Below are positions 2,997 through 58,400 of a DNA stretch of 64,000 bases, in pieces (the first letter of the stretch is position 1; each line of letters begins with the position of its first letter). The stretch spans positions 178,250,001 through 178,314,000 of the forward strand of contig OZ024740.1 of NCBI GenBank assembly GCA_964016885.1. The letters are read 5' to 3'. A model generated the notes under the pieces. The model was not told where the DNA came from. It was given only the letters and a program-made list of their open reading frames with translations, and made no database searches. Source of the stretch: Eledone cirrhosa (lineage: Eukaryota). Both the position numbers and the translations under genes were made by a program.

Positions 2997-3318
2997 ATAA
3001 CTAGAAATTGATTAACATATGAATAAACATGAATAATCAGAGAAGATAATTTTTACAAGTGTGTAAGCACACATAGCTAGGTAGGTAACTAAATAAAGTT
3101 AACCAGAACTTCAAAAATAGATACCTTATAATATGATTAATCTTCCCTGTATATATTCCATTAAAGAAATATATTTCACCAATTAATCGAATGGTAAACC
3201 ATGGAGGCCGATACTTGGATTTTCAACAAGGAAGAAGTCCAGCTATGTGTGCTTACACACTTGTAAAAATTATCTCCTGTGATTATTCATGTTTATTCAT
3301 ATGTTAATCAATTTCTAG

Positions 3319-5880: not shown

Positions 5881-6695
5881 CGCGCACACACATACGAACA
5901 CACACACACGCACGGACGCACACACACACACACATATATATACTTCTTTAGGATATCTCCTCTTTAGGAGATTTAACTCTCCTTAATTTTATACGGAACG
6001 GATTCGGGTTTTTAAGTCTCTGAGGAAAGAAAATGAATTTGATGGTTAGGGGAGTCTTTCTTTTATGTTACATTTGTTTTAAGCCAGGTAGTTAGTATAT
6101 GAATTTGCTTCCATAGACTGGAATTTAAAAATAAATAAACATCCCTATCTTTACAGAAAAATAATTAAAAAAAATGTTATTAATTCTGTTTGATTCCTTC
6201 ATTGGATTGTTATCTATTATGCAGATATCCACATACGTCCTATTTTTTATAGCAACACTGAATTGCCAAATAATTTGACGGTAGCAACATAAAATATAAT
6301 GCGTTACTCTATAACAGGAGACGTAATTGGGAATCGAAATTATAAACTTGCGATCATGTGCCGAACACTCAAACAAAAAACCACGCACCCTCCCAGCCTA
6401 TTTATCGTCTCAGCTACAACCATTCTTTTTCAGTCAATAACTAAAAGAAATTTATCGATGTATCTCCTTAAAAGTTTGGGTCGAGTTTTATTTCATTTCT
6501 ATCTGACCAGTCATGTGAAGAAAATAAATATACAATGCAAAAGATTAATGATCAAAAGTTAGTTAACACCTGCTCTTTCAAGCTAAACAGTCTTGCCTTT
6601 CAAATTCCCAATGGCGAAGTGAATGACAGCGAAATTCTCCGAATAGATATATTTGATTTACAAATCGTTACTAGAATGTCAGTTGCGTTTGCGCG

Positions 6696-6696
<1 letters not shown>

Positions 6697-6730
<34 letters not shown>

Positions 6731-6763
6731 ATATATATATGCACACATACACACACATATATG

Positions 6764-6834
<71 letters not shown>

Positions 6835-6946
6835 TATATATATATATTACATATATATGCACACATACACACACATATATATATATACATATATATGCAC
6901 ACATACACAAATATATATACATATATTTGTATATAATATATATATG

Positions 6947-6978
<32 letters not shown>

Positions 6979-7023
6979 TATATGTGTATATATATATACA
7001 TATATATATAATATATATATATG

Positions 7024-7071
<48 letters not shown>

Positions 7072-7139
7072 GTATATATATACATATCATATATATATAT
7101 AAGTGTATATATATATGCACACATACACACACATATATG

Positions 7140-7175
<36 letters not shown>

Positions 7176-7328
7176 CATATATATGCACACATACACATAT
7201 ATATATATATATGCACACATACGCAAATATATATACATATATTTGTATATAATATATATATGTATATATATATACACATATATATATGTGTATATATATA
7301 TACATATATATATTATATATATTATATA

Positions 7329-7363
<35 letters not shown>

Positions 7364-7431
7364 CATATATATGTATATATATACATATATATATATATGT
7401 GTATATATGTGTATATATATATATATTATAC

Positions 7432-7465
<34 letters not shown>
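6697..7465. repeat. Compound (TA)n/(CA)n microsatellite with higher-order duplication
   Basis: Sub-units such as gcacacatacac and caaatatatatacatatatttgtata recur in two blocks. Confidence 0.9.
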
Positions 7466-7531
7466 CAAGCAAATTATAAACGTAAACATGTAAGTATGTT
7501 TTTGAAACGGTGCGCGATTTTGAAATTAGAA

Positions 7532-7744
7532 ATTAGAAATTATAAGCTTTCACCGTATTTTTAGACTAAAGAAATTTCTAGCCTGATAGTGGGGTTTATA
7601 ACCCTCGGAGAAATGGAAAAGATGAGTGTTGCCGTACATGGGAGCAACACTCATCTTTTTCCATTTCTCCGAGGGTTATAAACCCCACTATCAGGCTAGA
7701 AATTTCTTTAGTCTAAAAATACGGTGTAAGCTTATAATTTCTAA

Positions 7745-7745
<1 letters not shown>
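7532..7745. repeat. Near-perfect fold-back palindrome (about 101-bp arms, 11-nt loop)
   Basis: Arms 7532-7632 and 7644-7745, loop cgtacatggga. Confidence 0.95.
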
Positions 7746-7778
<33 letters not shown>

Positions 7779-7887
7779 AATATATAATATAAGATCAAAA
7801 GATGGTTAAAAGAGTTCCATGTATTTTATTATGGGCATTTCAAAAACAAATATCATTCTTCCAGAATTTACTCCGAAAGCATTGGAC

Positions 7888-7976
7888 GTGTCCGACGAGC
7901 CCGCAGGTCCAGAGTCAGTCAAGATCCATGCAATGATCGTGTCTCGAGCTGCCCGCCGGCGAAACAATTGTAACAC
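7888..7976 (+). ncRNA. Degenerate minimal type I hammerhead (U4C)
   Basis: GUGU-CCGACGA-GCC..GGC-GAAA-CAAUUG-UA-ACAC. Confidence 0.6.
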
Positions 7977-8012
7977 ACAATAAATTGATTTCAGATGCAG
8001 CACTGATTTTTC

Positions 8013-8130
<118 letters not shown>

Positions 8131-8308
8131 CATATATATATTATATATAAATATAGGTTAGAAATTCCAAATCATCTGTTACAATTAAATAGCTCAAGGA
8201 AAGAGATTTTTCCGAGCCGTATATCTGGTCCCTTGCAATTTGAACATATATATGTATATATCTATGTTTATCTATCTCTTTTATATCAACTATAGTATAG
8301 ACACACAG

Positions 8309-8485
<177 letters not shown>

Positions 8486-8504
8486 TATATATTATACATA
8501 TATA

Positions 8505-8658
8505 TATATAAGTATGTACACGTACATACATATATGTATACCGACGTACAGTAGTATGTATATATATATATATACATACATGCACACATATATATATATA
8601 TATACATACTACTGTACGTCGGTATACATATATGTATGTACTTGTACATACTTATATT
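8505..8658. repeat. Fold-back palindrome within microsatellite
   Basis: ataagtatgtacacgtacatacatatatgtataccgacgtacagtagtatg and its reverse complement. Confidence 0.9.
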
Positions 8659-16338: not shown

Positions 16339-16915
16339 ACCATACCGGACGGAGTCGCTGGAAGACCGCCGCTGCAAAGGCTACAAAATAAATTTCCAAA
16401 TACGGTCGCGAATTTTAATGAACTTGTTCACGTGACAGTCATAATTTCATTTATGACCAATCAAATTACATTTATAAAAAAAAGCCTTCGTGAGCCACTT
16501 TTTTTTAAAGTAAAAAGAAATTCAAACAAATTGGCGCGAAAGCTGATGTGCTTATTCACGTGACTGCATCAACCAACAAAACTTCACTCATATATGAAAA
16601 AACAACCTGAGCTCCCGCCCCCCTTTGTTTGAAGAACTCTGTAACGCGACCTGGCGCGAAATTTATTATACTTATTCACCAACCAATCCAATTACTTCTC
16701 TAAAAACTTGGCGTTTTGAGCCACTTTTTTCCATATAAAACAAGTAACATTCAAAGACCAACCAGATGTGAGAAAAACCACAGACGTTCCATCTCAACTG
16801 TACTTTTGAAAAGCAGAAGAACTGCGAAACGGTAAAGGAACCAAATAAATATATATATTTTTTTTAAAATAAGACTCTAGTTGCATTTTCGATTTCATCT
16901 TTTTTCCTGATATAC

Positions 16916-37745: not shown

Positions 37746-37853
<108 letters not shown>

Positions 37854-38049
37854 GAACATACGTATGTGTGCATGTTTGTGTTTTTTTGAGTTTTAGTTTA
37901 ATCTTTATATCACTATGTATTGAGAAATTACGCATATAATAAATTATATAATACATATAGACCTTCATTCAACTAAGCACAGTCAAACAGACACACACAT
38001 ACACATTCGCGTCCATGTATATATATATATATATACTCTCTCTCTCTCT

Positions 38050-44112: not shown

Positions 44113-44736
44113 GAAAAAAAGATGAAATCGAAAATGTAACTGGAGTCTTATTTAAAAAAATATATATATATTTATTTGGTTCCTTTACCGGTTTCGCAGT
44201 TCTTCTGCTTTTCAAAAGTACAGTTGAGATGGAGGGTCTGTGGTTTTTCTCACATCTGGTTGGTCTTTGAATGTTACTTGTTTTATATGAAAAAAGTGGC
44301 TCGAAACGCCAGGTTTTTAGAGAAGTAATTTGATTGGTTGGCAATAAGTATAATACATTTCACGCCAGTTCGCGTTACAAAGTTCTTCAAACACAGAGAG
44401 GGGGCTCAGGTTGTTTTTTCACTCATATATGAAAAAAATAACCTGAGACCCCCCCCCCCTTGTTTGAAGAACTTTGTAACGCGAACTGGCGCGAAATGTA
44501 TTATACTTATTGACCAACCAATCAAATTACTTCTCTAAAAACCTGGCGTTTCGAGCCACTTTTTTCTATATAAAACAAGTAACATTCAAAGACCAACCAG
44601 ATGTGAGAAAACCACAGACCCTCCATCTCAACTCTACTTTTGAAAAGCAGAAGAACTGCGAAACCGGTAAAGGAACCAAATAAATATATATATATTTTTA
44701 AAAATAAGACTTTAGTTGCATTTTCGATTTCATCTT

Positions 44737-54944: not shown

Positions 54945-55005
54945 AACTTTATACACTCAGTTCTATATATGAAAAATTATTTTGTAAAATACAATATATA
55001 TATAT

Positions 55006-55429
55006 AATTAGAATTGGCGCTCTGAAATAGCTATATATATATATGAATGTATATATAGTGTATTTTGCAATACACTATATGCTTAATTAAAAGCATTTCG
55101 AAGACCTTATGCTATTGTTTTAGAGTAGTGACAGTCTCATTTACTTTAAACTTTTAGCAAACAGGGGAGATAAAGCTGACAGAGCTATGTTTCGTACTGA
55201 TTGATACTTATCAAAGCCAAGTACTCCACCTGCTTGCTGTAAATCATGAATGTTTGATTCTTATAGAATTTCTAGTAATAATCAGGAACTGATTATACAG
55301 AGCGGTTGCCGGTCAAGCAGAAATTGAAAATTAGAATTGGCGCTCTGAAATAGCTATATATATATGAATGTATATATAGTGTATTTTGCAATACACTGTA
55401 TGCTCAATTAAAAGCATTTCGAAGACCTT
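55006..55429 (-). mobile_element. Retrozyme-like element with about 100-bp terminal direct repeats
   Basis: Direct repeats 55006-55108 / 55329-55429, internal hammerhead. Confidence 0.8.
55156..55238 (-). ncRNA. Type I hammerhead, U3:A8 variant with extended stem I
   Basis: GCU-UUGAUAA-GUAU..GUAC-GAAA-CAUAGCUCUG-UC-AGC (55175-55217), outer helix AGCAAGCAGG.GGAG / CUCC.CCUGUUUGCU. Confidence 0.7.
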
Positions 55430-58400
55430 TTTTGTTGGCAGACACTGATCTTGTGCTGATATAATCAGTCCTTCAGTCTCCGATTTCAGTTCAGAGGATG
55501 CCAACCACTAATGGGTTAAAGTTTTGTCAACATCAGGATTGTTAGCTCGTTCTGGGTATTTTCCATACAGAGGCTTTTTTTGCCATTTCTTAGCCAGTTT
55601 CTGTAGTAGTTCTTTCTTTGCAGTTACTTTTACCTGCTTTGCTTTTTCTGTGTTTTCCATTTCAGCAGTAAATGGGACTTCTGAAATTTGTAGTCCATTA
55701 CTGTATCTTTGTGCATCTTTTGTAATGGAGTATGATCTTTTGATGCTTTCGTGTTTCAAAACGAGTTTGATCATCCAATCATGTGATTCCCTTAGATATG
55801 TAGATAATCCAATTGTTGCAGTTTTCAACGCAATGTCTAACTGGATTAACCCACGTCCTCCTTCTTTCCTAGGGAGATATATTCTATCTGTATCTGCCGT
55901 AGGGTGATGCATTCTGTGCATGGTTAAGAATCTTCTAATTTTTGTATCGAGCATACGGATCTCTGTGCTTGACCAGTTGATGACCAGTTGTAACTGTAGG
56001 TTACTACTGGTATGGCAAGCGTGTTTATGGCATCGATCCTATTCCTTGCATTCAATTCCGTTCTTAAGATTGCTCTTACTCTGCGGTAACATTCCTTCCT
56101 TATCCTTTCCCTCATTGTCGAGTGCTTGATTCCGTCTCCTTCACAAACACCTAGATATTTGTAAGTTTCCTCTTGATCAAGTTCTCCTATCACATTCCCC
56201 CGATCAAGATTAATGTCTGAACTTTTCAGCAGCTTTCCTCTGATGAACGTTGCTTTGGCGCATTTATCTAGTCCAAACTCCATTTTAATGTCATCACTGA
56301 ACTGCTTCACACTGGATAATAGCCGTTACAATTGTTCATCATTTTTTGCAAATAGTTTCAGATCAACCATGTAGAACAAGTGATTAATAGTTTTGTCATA
56401 GACTTTATATCCAGGTTTTGTTTCATTGAGCATTTTACTTAATGGTATAAGTGCGATGCAGAATAAAAGCGGTGATAAAGAGTCACCCTGAAAAATTCCA
56501 CAATTAATATTAACTTCTCCAGCTTCCAGTGATTTTGTTTCACTATTCAAAAGAAGTGTCGTTTTCCATGTCTTCATACTGAATGACAAAAACGTCCTGA
56601 CAACGGGAGATATTTTGAAAATCTCTAAACATTTTTCGATCCAAGTGTGGCAAACTATCGAATGCTTTTTTATAATCTATCCAAGCAATCGATAGATTTT
56701 TGTGTCTATTATGACAATCTTCCAGTATCATTTTATTAACCAAAAGCTGATCCTTACAGCCATATGAGCCTTGTTTACATCCTTTCTGCTCAATGGGAAA
56801 TAGGTAATTTGTTATCAGTTGGTCATATGTATATTCAGTTAGGACTGATGTTAAAATGTTATACATTGTGATCAAGCAAGTTATCGGTCTGTAATTTTTG
56901 GGATTGTTTGTCTCATCATTCTTCGGAAGCAGGAATGTAATGCCGTTAACTAGCCATGATGGTATCTTTTCTGGCTCCTTAACTATTTCATTGTAAAGTT
57001 AGGCTAACAGCTCATGAGACTCTGTGAAGGCATTTATCCAAAAATTTGTTATTTTGTCTTTTCCTGGGGATTTCCATTTGCTGGTTTTTTTAAGAGCCAA
57101 ACGCAACTGTTCAACTGTTATATTTTCCCATATTTGTTCCTCAAGGTGAGCTGTATCTTTCATTTGTCTGTCTATCCATGGGGCATGTATATTATGAACT
57201 TTTTCTTCGGCCCAGATCTTTTCCCAGAATTCTTGCACTTCCTCCTTGGGTGGTATTGATTTAGCAGTTATTGTTGACTTACCAATCTTTCTGTAGAATT
57301 TTCTTTGGTTGTTTTTGAACATATTGTTCTTATAGAATCTAGATCGTTTTTCAAAGCGCCTTATACGAGCAGCTTTGGCCGACACTTTTTGCTTGATTAT
57401 TTCTATCAGCATGTCTATGTCACTTGTTGATTTTATACAGTACTTTCTTTTCAATTTTCTAAGTTTAGTTTGTTTAACATGTTCACCTACTTTATAGTTT
57501 GTTAAAATTTCTATGTCAGATCGGAAAAGGTTTATTTGGCGATTGATGTTCTCTTGCCAAGTAGATTTCTTGTGGGAATTCCTTTGTTTTTTTCATTTTC
57601 ACTCCACATAAGTGAGTGGTGACTTTAGCCGATGCATAATAGAGATGATTTAAATCAGTAATGTTTAGTTTGTTTGTGATGATAATGTTTTTGAGAATTA
57701 TGTTAATCTTGTGTATTATCTTTTGGTTCTGTTTGGAGTTCTGGATCTTAGGGTGGGTGTCTCGTTCCCCCATGTCAGATTCTTTCATTTTCATCCATTC
57801 GATCATAATTTCATCCTTCAAGTTGGCAAGTTCATTCTCATTCATTTCTTTATCTTTTACGATCTCATTGTTTTCATTTGGAGTTTCATCTTGAGCATGC
57901 ACTCCCTCCACTTTTTCGATCCTTTCTTTAATTTGTTCTGTTGACAGTGATTCCGCCCCAACCCTGGGATTCGAAGTGTTACAATTTACCTCGTTTTCAC
58001 TGACACATGTTTCATTTTCCCTTCGCTGACTTTGTGTTAATAGCTTGATCAATTTATATATCAGTTAGTAACTTTTTTTTAACAATATTTCTTCGTATAT
58101 TGGCTTGTTTGTTACTGTCAATATAGCCTCTGTTTTCGGGATGTCTCTTTTTCCAGTTGATATATGTCTGTTCTGTATTCGATGTATTTGATGGGTAGTA
58201 CATGGCAGTGTAGAAAGCCACAAGGACTTCTTTATTATCTTCCCTTGACCATTTTTCTCTCTTTTTCTTCTTTTTCTTTGGATTTCTTGGTGGTGAGCAG
58301 GGGGGGGGGGGGGCAAACAGTAGGAGTATTTCGGTTATGGGAGGTCTCCAGCTCTGAAGTGATGGGAAGGTTTGAACCATTAGCTGATTTTTCGACCCCA

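What the first reader, a model, noticed from the sequence alone, without database searches (positions are those of the whole stretch)
55156..55238. Second independent U3:A8 hammerhead (UUGAUAA) with extended stem I
Seen: sequence unrelated to the 3.1-kb motif but the same double substitution, a GUC site, a palindromic AGCU in loop III, and a distal stem I helix separated by an internal loop. Inference: the same paired change at 3.1, 44.2/44.6/16.8, 55.2 and possibly 11.9 kb argues for selection or a U3:A8 lineage rather than random decay. The internal loop could make the loop I-loop II tertiary contact.
Basis: partly seen in the sequence, partly recalled or inferred. Interest (0 to 1): 0.75.

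Follow-up and report, generated by a model that had tools for sequence, protein, structure and literature searches.

The report
Hammerhead ribozyme variant in retrozyme repeat
The motif is a hammerhead-ribozyme fold with a paired U3:A8 core change, sitting once per 321-base unit of an abundant retrotransposon-like repeat whose sister family keeps the standard C3:G8 core; it is predicted to self-cleave only when two copies pair, and it is a new example of a known kind rather than a new thing.

Summary
On the minus strand of 55156-55238 lies a type-I hammerhead (HHR) topology. It has a 14-bp distal stem I, an internal loop, a 4-bp proximal stem I, the core UUGAUAA, a 4-bp helix II, GAAA, a 3-bp helix III with AGCU in its loop, and a GUC site.

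It is not an isolated chance motif. It occurs once per ~321-nt unit of a high-copy repeat found in tandem arrays and head-to-head, 5'-truncated pairs ending at (TA)n. That is the insertion signature of Penelope-like elements (PLEs) and non-LTR retrozymes.

U3:A8 is the founder state of this family: UA 519, UG 4, CA 1, CG 0. A sister family whose whole unit is 75-78% identical carries the canonical CUGAUGA at the homologous place: CG 93, CA 3, UG 2, UA 0. So 3/8 truly covaries.

Between the families 39 of 84 columns differ and 21 of 26 pairs show changes on both sides. The rest of the core is unchanged.

In a 1-Mb genome sample, CG and UA hits exceed chance and UG and CA do not.

Natural U3-A8 hammerheads, including ones in PLEs, are already published. 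The window copy is a lone, slightly decayed fossil. Cleavage is untested.

The parts
55006..55429 (-). One insertion of the repeat. It holds 1.32 units, read 55429->55006, with no inverted partner arm. Its 3' end abuts a (TA)n run at about 54993-55006.
   Evidence: BLAST of the region against 9 other loci stops at these limits. The internal direct repeat 55006-55108 / 55327-55429 is 96% identical over 103 nt. GC is 31.8%.
55109..55429 (-). One full 321-nt unit. The hammerhead occupies unit positions 192-274.
   Evidence: The same unit is repeated head to tail at least 45 times in L022/L023.
55156..55238 (-).
   Evidence: R1 model: 97.2 bits, E 4e-25.
55224..55238 (-). Stem I distal helix, 5' strand (AGCAAGCAGG-U-GGAG, with U bulged).
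   Evidence: It pairs with 55156-55169. In the cross-family alignment, 11 of the 14 distal pairs show changes on both sides.
55215..55218 (-). Stem I proximal helix, 5' strand (GGCU). The 5' side of the internal loop (UACUU) is at 55219-55223.
   Evidence: Pair 2.1-1.1 is U-A in 32 sequences and C-G in 17.
55208..55214 (-). Core strand UUGAUAA, positions 3-9. U3 is at 55214 and A8 at 55209.
55194..55207 (-). Helix II (GUAU/GUAC, 4 bp with one U.G in this copy) and loop II (CAAUCA).
   Evidence: Most family copies have GUAC/GUAC. Subfamilies have GCAU/AUGC and GCAC/GUGC. Pairs 10.2-11.2 and 10.4-11.4 covary.
55179..55193 (-). G12 A13 A14, then helix III (A15.1-U16.1, C-G, A-U) with loop UAGCUC, which holds the palindrome AGCU.
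   Evidence: Pair 15.4-16.4 is U.C in this copy, G-C or A-U in other subfamilies.
55177..55178 (-). Predicted cleavage site: after C17 (55178) and before A1.1 (55177).
   Evidence: This is its position in the hammerhead layout. It has not been tested.
55156..55177 (-). Stem I 3' strand: proximal AGCU (55174-55177), internal loop UUAU (55170-55173), distal CUCCCCUGUUUGCU (55156-55169).
55508..58064 (-). A neighbouring frameshifted reverse-transcriptase fragment (LINE-like). It is not part of the repeat.
   Evidence: Pfam RVT_1 matches in two frames. None of the 9 other loci shares this flank.

Best explanation
Window 55156-55238 (minus strand) is the hammerhead-ribozyme domain of one fossil copy of a ~321-nt non-coding repeat of the non-LTR retrozyme / Penelope-like type, and its U3:A8 core is a compensated version of the standard C3:G8 pair; it would likely cut transcripts of tandem copies after C17 into unit-length RNAs.

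Shown here:
- the fold and its place once per repeat unit
- the repeat's tandem and head-to-head, 5'-truncated, (TA)n-terminated insertion pattern
- the homology to a sister family with a canonical core
- compensatory changes in all three helices
- a core that is otherwise invariant

Inferred, not shown:
- that the RNA self-cleaves
- that it does so as a dimer of two neighbouring motifs joined through the palindromic helix III
- that unit-length RNAs are circularised and copied back into DNA by a Penelope-like reverse transcriptase and endonuclease

The window copy is probably inactive. It has a single motif, no partner, and two substitutions that weaken pairs to G.U.
For: Repeat context:
- The 83-mer has 1424 first-look candidates in the 3.0-Gb genome. 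All 40 scored are 94-100% identical.
- Tandem arrays hold at least 45 units in L022/L023.
- Among the first 100 listed sites of the core 19-mer, all 15 close opposite-strand pairs are in minus-then-plus order, and 4 same-strand pairs are 317-321 nt apart.
- The 18 loci with inverted arms have variable 5' ends. In 15 of them both arms end at unit position 50-106; three arms stop inside the unit.
- These traits match those described for PLEs (PMC8557442, passages; PMC4209133, passages).

Covariation of positions 3 and 8:

| Family | n | UA | UG | CA | CG |
|---|---|---|---|---|---|
| A | 524 | 519 | 4 | 1 | 0 |
| F | 98 | 0 | 2 | 3 | 93 |

The units of A and F align at 78% over 363 nt (E 1e-78) and 75% over 321 nt (E 4e-54).

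Structure:
- In 94 copies, 93.5% of cells are paired; 0 of 500 shuffles reach this.
- In 50 copies from subfamilies A-E, 95.9% are paired. Double changes occur at 2.1-1.1, 10.2-11.2, 10.4-11.4 and 15.4-16.4.
- With family F added (model-fitted alignment, 60 distinct rows), 95.0% are paired and 21 of 26 pairs change on both sides. The shuffle mean is 11.6, with 0 of 500 as high.

Core conservation: majority letters of F and non-F differ at 39 of 84 columns. U4, G5, A6, U7, A9, G12, A13, A14, A15.1 and U16.1 are identical. The only core differences are positions 3, 8 and H17 (C or U).

Strand: G.U pairs are frequent. This fits the hammerhead-sense strand only.

Genome sample: CG and UA hits are in excess while UG and CA are at chance.

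PLEs are abundant in this genome. GIY-YIG has 10,595 first-look candidates, and all 150 scored pass Pfam's cut-off. Open frames of 604-938 aa carry RVT_1 plus GIY-YIG. One is flanked by a different U3:A8 motif on both sides.

Literature: natural U3-A8 covariation is reported, and such cores were said to be active in vitro (PMC3088659, passages).
Against: - No Rfam hammerhead model reaches its gathering score. The window motif scores 14.2 bits and even family F, with a canonical core, scores only 22.8 bits, against 52 for HH9.
- The monomeric hammerhead fold is not the minimum-energy fold. It lies 2-3 kcal/mol above it in family A and 9 kcal/mol above it in subfamily B. The helix III hairpin has probability <=0.01.
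- A competing pairing of GGCUUUG with the 5' half of helix III is possible in all subfamilies.
- Subfamily B and part of E carry an extra A between helix II and G12, yet both spread to many loci. Either the core tolerates this insertion or cleavage is not needed for spread.
- Copies within a family are no better conserved in the hammerhead than elsewhere: variability 0.049 against 0.054. Between subfamilies the domain is not more conserved either.
- No autonomous element carrying this hammerhead was found.
- Published PLE minimal hammerheads cleaved poorly in vitro (PMC4209133, passage).
Confidence: 0.78

Rival explanations
1. The fold is conserved but no longer catalytic. On this view the U3:A8 families keep a three-way junction, or an extended hairpin, for another role in the repeat's life cycle. 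One such role would be recognition by the reverse transcriptase. The hammerhead core would then be a retained relic.
For: - The extra A next to G12 occurs in widely spread subfamilies.
- The alternative lower-energy fold exists in all subfamilies.
- Published PLE minimal hammerheads show low in vitro activity (PMC4209133, passage).
- Naiad PLEs proliferate without canonical hammerheads (PMC8557442, passage).
Against: - Ten core positions stay identical while 39 of 84 columns differ between families, and the only paired core change keeps a Watson-Crick pair.
- Single-mismatch cores are 5% or less of either family.
- Double changes at 2.1-1.1 and 15.4-16.4 are explained by the hammerhead helices. 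The alternative hairpin does not explain them.
Confidence: 0.17
2. It is a chance look-alike in AT-rich DNA. A long inverted repeat would happen to enclose YUGANRA and GAAA.
For: - Rfam gives only a sub-threshold score, E 0.66 in 201 nt.
- The relaxed descriptor yields about 2 chance hits per 64 kb.
Against: - The strict descriptor gives 0 hits in 100 shuffles.
- The motif is conserved through five subfamilies with compensatory changes.
- It is homologous to a family with a canonical core.
Confidence: 0.02
3. It is part of a protein-coding exon. The minus strand has an open 39-codon frame at 55141-55260.
For: The frame is open for 39 codons.
Against: - The stretch is a repeat with hundreds of copies in tandem and inverted arrays.
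- Copies differ by indels inside the frame.
- Variation follows RNA pairing, not codons.
Confidence: 0.01

Closest known systems
Non-LTR retrozymes of animals: short tandem repeats with type-I hammerheads, expressed as small circular RNAs (Cervera & de la Pena 2020, PMC7229834, passages; Li et al. 2026 preprint 10.64898/2026.07.22.740005, abstract and Results)
   Same: - a non-coding unit of 321 nt, within the published range of 51-972 bp
- low GC (33.6%)
- one type-I hammerhead per unit
- monomers, dimers and long arrays all occur
- PLEs are present in the same genome
   Different: - The core is U3:A8 rather than C3:G8.
- Stem I is unusually long, with a 14-15-bp distal helix.
- Many copies are head-to-head inverted pairs.
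- RNA circles and expression could not be examined here.
Hammerheads in the pseudo-LTRs of Penelope-like elements, including the U3-A8 variant found via Cercyon of Schistosoma mansoni (Cervera & de la Pena 2014, PMC4209133, passages)
   Same: - U3-A8 in place of C3-G8
- a short helix III with a palindromic loop, suggesting dimeric action
- pairs of motifs 100-700 bp apart on opposite strands
- a G10.1-C11.1 pair
- high copy number
   Different: - This element encodes no RT or endonuclease.
- Its helix III is 3-4 bp rather than absent.
- It has no extra nucleotide between A9 and 10.1. Instead some subfamilies have an extra A before G12.
- A sister family with the canonical core shows the covariation directly.
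Natural core variants of hammerheads (Perreault et al. 2011, PMC3088659, passages)
   Same: C3 and G8 covary to U3 and A8 in several natural examples. The paper states that such cores had already been shown active in vitro. It also reports tolerated insertions in the GAAA strand and U10.1-U11.1 mismatches, as seen here in family F.
   Different: I did not see those sequences. Those I could read about are not described as retrozyme repeats. That paper's own filter rejected repeat-borne core mutants.

Membership tests
Hammerhead ribozyme, type I | A three-way junction of helices I, II and III, with the 5' and 3' ends in helix I | tested here: met
   Layout read. 93.5-95.9% of cells are paired, with compensatory changes in all helices.
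Hammerhead ribozyme, type I | Strict core consensus C3 U4 G5 A6 N7 G8 A9 / G12 A13 A14 / A15.1-U16.1 / H17 | tested here: not met
   Positions 3 and 8 are U and A. All other positions match. PMC3088659's own filter (passage) would reject the motif on this criterion.
Hammerhead ribozyme, type I | Positions 3 and 8 form a Watson-Crick pair | tested here: met
   U-A in 519 of 524 family A copies. C-G in 93 of 98 sister-family copies.
Hammerhead ribozyme, type I | Rfam gathering score (RF00163 34 bits, RF02275 52 bits) | tested here: not met
   No gathering hit. HH9 scores 14.2 bits. Sister family F scores 22.8 bits.
Hammerhead ribozyme, type I | Site-specific self-cleavage 3' of H17 | not testable with these tools
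   No RNA run was listed for this sequence.
Hammerhead ribozyme, type I | A tertiary contact between the stem I internal loop and loop II | tested here: inconclusive
   Loop II keeps C-A-A-N-N-A and the internal loop keeps U-A-N-N-U across families. No structural test was run.
Non-LTR retrozyme | Short non-coding units in tandem, each with a type-I hammerhead, and low GC | tested here: met
   321-nt units in arrays of at least 45. One motif per unit. GC 33.6%.
Non-LTR retrozyme | Expression as unit-length circular RNA | not testable with these tools
   No RNA holder was listed.
Penelope-like element (mobilisation signature) | Variable 5' truncation, partial tandems, an adjacent inverted 5'-truncated copy, and insertion at (TA)n | tested here: met
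   compared with passages of PMC8557442.
Penelope-like element (autonomous) | Encodes RT plus a GIY-YIG endonuclease between the repeats | tested here: not met
   No such frame lies next to copies: 14 flanking frames were scanned. PLE frames elsewhere do not carry this unit as their own repeat.

The most novel reading that the evidence does not exclude
In this genome U3:A8 is a preferred alternative hammerhead core, not a tolerated accident. It is fixed in at least two sequence-unrelated lineages: an autonomous Penelope-like element and a retrozyme superfamily with four multi-locus subfamilies. It has persisted through turnover of the helices. One array carries U.G, the expected one-step form between the two pairs, though its direction of change is not known. 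A weaker U-A pair could tune the balance of cleavage and ligation, or the Mg2+ dependence, in favour of forming circular RNA.
Probability: 0.2. Interest if true: 0.55.

Novelty: new member of a known kind. Interest (0 to 1): 0.35.

Why it matters
The locus offers a clean natural experiment on the C3-G8 pair of the hammerhead core. Two sister repeat families in one genome differ at 46% of the columns of the ribozyme domain. Both keep every other core nucleotide, and they carry C-G and U-A respectively. Single mismatches occur only as rare dead copies.

This supports the structural role of the 3-8 pair from evolution alone. It also provides ready-made matched sequences for kinetic comparison.

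For annotation, it shows that Rfam models at their gathering scores, and the strict-core filter PMC3088659 describes, miss whole high-copy ribozyme families of this kind. Beyond that, the element is an ordinary member of the retrozyme / Penelope-like repeat world.

Tried and rejected
- RNA evidence: the look-up of sequencing runs listed no RNA holder, only three contig-level runs of one study. Expression, cleavage ends and circles could not be examined, and read laying was not used.
- Rfam at gathering and E-value thresholds gave no usable hammerhead call. The many miRNA-like hits are (TA)n/(TG)n hairpins or inverted repeat arms, all below their gathering scores.
I replaced it with a descriptor script.
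- Conservation within the family, hammerhead against the rest of the unit, showed no difference. This is expected for dead copies and was dropped as a test.
- I looked for an autonomous partner. I scanned 14 frames flanking copies. I ran BLAST and the R1 model over 13 PLE-bearing loci. The only hits were unrelated neighbouring insertions.
- The reverse transcriptase next to the window copy is not linked to the repeat. A protein-atlas look-up on it gave nothing useful.
- MAFFT misaligned family F in the 3' half. I used a model-fitted alignment instead, which leans towards the structure.
- Earlier-findings look-ups returned nothing.
- The exon reading and the chance reading were considered and rejected, as set out under the rival explanations.

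Full report
**What is there.** Read on the minus strand, window 55238->55156 is an 83-nt sequence with the layout of a type-I hammerhead ribozyme. It has these parts, in order:
- a 14-bp distal stem I with one bulged U
- an internal loop (UACUU / UUAU)
- a 4-bp proximal stem I (GGCU/AGCU)
- the core strand UUGAUAA
- a 4-bp helix II (GUAU/GUAC) closed by CAAUCA
- GAAA
- a 3-bp helix III whose loop UAGCUC contains AGCU
- the site GUC, followed by the 3' strand of stem I

The predicted cut lies after the C at 55178.

**Is it more than chance?** Rfam does not call it. There is nothing at gathering level in the window, and HH9 scores 14.2 bits against 52 in a 201-nt search. A descriptor of my own (helix I >=4, II >=3, III >=2, loops <=12) finds only this site in the window and none in 100 Markov shuffles. 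I set those thresholds knowing the motif.

**Context.** The genome holds 3.0 Gb. The 83-mer has 1424 first-look candidates, and all 40 scored are 94-100% identical.
- The motif lies at positions 192-274 of a ~321-nt unit. The window holds 1.32 units (55429->55006), ending at a (TA)n run.
- Elsewhere the unit forms head-to-tail arrays, with at least 45 units in L022/L023.
- It also forms inverted pairs. All 18 loci with inverted arms are head to head with variable 5' ends. In 15 of them both arms end at unit position 50-106. Fifteen of those 18 loci were chosen because one search already showed a pair there.
- Among the first 100 listed sites of the core 19-mer, all 15 close opposite-strand pairs are in minus-then-plus order. 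Four same-strand pairs are 317-321 nt apart.
- Variable 5' truncation, partial tandems, an adjacent inverted truncated copy and (TA)n targets are the traits described for Penelope-like elements (PMC8557442, passages). Opposite-strand hammerhead pairs 100-700 bp apart were described for them too (PMC4209133, passage).
- Short tandem units with one type-I hammerhead each define animal non-LTR retrozymes (PMC7229834, passages; preprint 10.64898/2026.07.22.740005, abstract and Results).
- The reverse-transcriptase fragment beside the window copy is not shared by the 9 other loci.

**The window copy against its family.** It differs from the common form at two positions of the 83. Each change turns a Watson-Crick pair into G.U: stem I A-U to G.U, and helix II C-G to U.G.

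**The 3/8 question inside the family.** Exact 19-mer counts over the genome are as follows.

| Context | UA | UG | CA | CG |
|---|---|---|---|---|
| Majority form | 519 | 4 | 1 | 0 |
| Window's variant | 21 | 2 | 0 | 0 |

U3:A8 is therefore the founder state. These counts reflect descent from one founder, not repeated selection.

**Subfamilies.** At least five forms share UUGAUAA.

| Subfamily | Helix II | Other features |
|---|---|---|
| A | GUAC/GUAC | some copies have helix III ACAGAGCUCUGU, a perfect palindrome |
| B | GCAU/AUGC | helix III ACAAGGCCUUGU (perfect palindrome); an extra A before G12 |
| D | GCAC/GUGC | none noted |
| E | GCAU/AUGC | proximal stem I AGCC/GGCU; some copies have the extra A |
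| C (one locus, L025) | GUAU or GCAU / AUGC | extra A before G12 |

- On 94 copies, 93.5% of cells pair (0 of 500 shuffles as high).
- On 50 copies spanning A-E, 95.9% pair. Changes on both sides occur at 2.1-1.1 (UA 32, CG 17), 10.2-11.2 (CG 28, UA 16), 10.4-11.4 (UA 33, CG 16) and 15.4-16.4 (AU 32, GC 6).

**The sister family with a canonical core.** I built a covariance model from those 50 copies and ran it over a 1-Mb systematic sample, 100 stretches of 10 kb.
- It found two weaker matches, at 45.6 and 37.8 bits, with CUGAUGA.
- Their whole units align to the window's unit: 78% over 363 nt (E 1e-78) and 75% over 321 nt (E 4e-54). They are therefore homologous elements. I call this family F.
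- In 29 further copies, CUGAUGA was read in 22. One had CUGAUAA, one UUGAUGA, and 5 were not parsed.
- Genome-wide, its 20-mer gives CG 93, CA 3, UG 2 and UA 0, out of 98.
- The L025 array carries U3.G8 in 4 of 6 parsed copies, and a fifth copy has G8 with another core change. The only two exact G8 matches in that context lie in this array.

**Cross-family structure.** In a model-fitted alignment of 65 matches (60 distinct), 95.0% of cells pair. 21 of 26 pairs show changes on both sides, against a shuffle mean of 11.6, with 0 of 500 as high. This alignment leans towards the structure by construction.
- After I dropped four rows (three copies of another hammerhead family and one opposite-strand match), majority letters of F and non-F differ at 39 of 84 columns.
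- U4, G5, A6, U7, A9, G12, A13, A14, A15.1 and U16.1 are the same. The only core differences are positions 3 and 8 together, and H17 (C or U).
- Loop II keeps CAANNA and the internal loop keeps UA..U.
- Frequent G.U pairs fit only the hammerhead-sense strand.

On the 1-Mb sample:

| Descriptor | CG obs / exp | UA obs / exp | UG obs / exp | CA obs / exp |
|---|---|---|---|---|
| Medium | 8 / 0.0 | 7 / 0.2 | 0 / 0.2 | 1 / 0.1 |
| Relaxed | 56 / 2.3 | 18 / 6.6 | 5 / 3.8 | 5 / 5.7 |

- The medium-descriptor CA hit is a mutant copy of subfamily E; only 2 of the 29 other sampled copies share it.
- The UA hits fall into two lineages: this repeat, and CCUUUUGAAAAGCAGAAGAACUGCGAAACCGGUAAAGG.
- That second motif is the one at window 16.8, 44.2 and 44.6 kb. 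Elsewhere it flanks, on the same strand, a 938-aa open frame with RVT_1 and GIY-YIG. It also lies 1.1 kb downstream of an 844-aa RVT_1 frame whose GIY-YIG match came from the genome search.
- GIY-YIG domains are very abundant: 10,595 first-look candidates, and 150 of 150 scored pass the cut-off.
- Canonical type-I hammerheads also exist: 19 of 74 scored RF00163 matches pass its cut-off.

**What speaks against activity.**
- The monomeric hammerhead fold lies 2-3 kcal/mol above the minimum in family A and 9 above it in B. The helix III hairpin has probability <=0.01.
- A competing pairing of GGCUUUG with the 5' half of helix III exists in all forms.
- The 12-nt palindromes of the A variant and of B would give duplexes of about -20 kcal/mol. 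This fits the published idea that such motifs act as dimers (PMC4209133, passages). That idea is inference here.
- The extra A before G12 has spread in B and in part of E.
- Copies are no better conserved in the hammerhead than elsewhere, within or between subfamilies.
- Published PLE minimal hammerheads cleaved weakly in vitro (PMC4209133, passage).

**Comparison with what is known, and novelty.**
- Natural U3-A8 covariation was reported in 2011, with the statement that such cores were already known to be active in vitro (PMC3088659, passages).
- It was reported in 2014 for a Schistosoma PLE, with about 1,300 hits (PMC4209133, passage).
- My one literature search for the term U3-A8 with 'hammerhead ribozyme' listed only the 2014 paper.
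- The element fits the non-LTR retrozyme class with a PLE-type insertion signature.
- It fails the strict core consensus and the Rfam gathering scores.
- It meets the topology, the paired 3-8 requirement and the repeat architecture.

It is a new member of a known kind. Its useful feature is the matched pair of sister families carrying C-G and U-A.

**Verdict.** The window copy itself is a lone, slightly decayed fossil. Self-cleavage, dimeric action, circular RNA and the mobilising element remain untested.

Noticed in passing
window 16803-16837 (+), 44183-44218 (-), 44637-44672 (+): A second, sequence-unrelated U3:A8 minimal hammerhead motif (CUUUUGAAAAGCAGAAGAACUGCGAAAC[C]GGUAAAG). The two copies at 44 kb form a head-to-head pair around a long hairpin (sub-threshold MIR2646-like hit at 44357-44497). 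Elsewhere in the genome the same motif flanks an open 938-aa RT+GIY-YIG Penelope-like frame on both sides (L241), and follows an 844-aa RVT_1 frame (L242).
   Followed up: partly
window 55508-58064 (-): A frameshifted reverse-transcriptase fragment (Pfam RVT_1 in two frames), directly upstream of the repeat copy but not linked to it in other loci. It looks LINE-like; that label is from recall and was not tested.
   Followed up: partly
window about 3130-3226 (-): UUGAAAA followed 48 nt later by GAAAUAUAU. It resembles the long-helix-II Penelope-type motifs seen in the 1-Mb sample, but it failed my descriptors.
   Followed up: no
window about 11955 (-): UUGAUAA with no GAAA in the 63 nt printed after it. 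The '11.9 kb' hammerhead candidate is not supported by my scan.
   Followed up: partly
L025:6008-6088 (-), 6472-6552 (-), 7171-7251 (+): Three copies of another canonical type-I hammerhead family (…CUGAUGAGAUGUAACAACAUCGAAACUAGUC…) with a similar long stem I. They lie beside the array whose copies carry U3.G8.
   Followed up: no
1-Mb sample L072-L171 (e.g. L102, L087, L150, L164): Many canonical-core Penelope-type hammerhead families. One example is CUGAAGAGGUCACAGCC…GGCUGUCACUGAAAUAUAUAUA, with a palindromic AU-rich helix III. Canonical copies often end at (AT)n.
   Followed up: no
window 6680-8650, 37790-37880 and others: (TA)n/(TG)n microsatellite hairpins give dozens of sub-threshold miRNA-family matches in Rfam. 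None reaches a gathering score.
   Followed up: no
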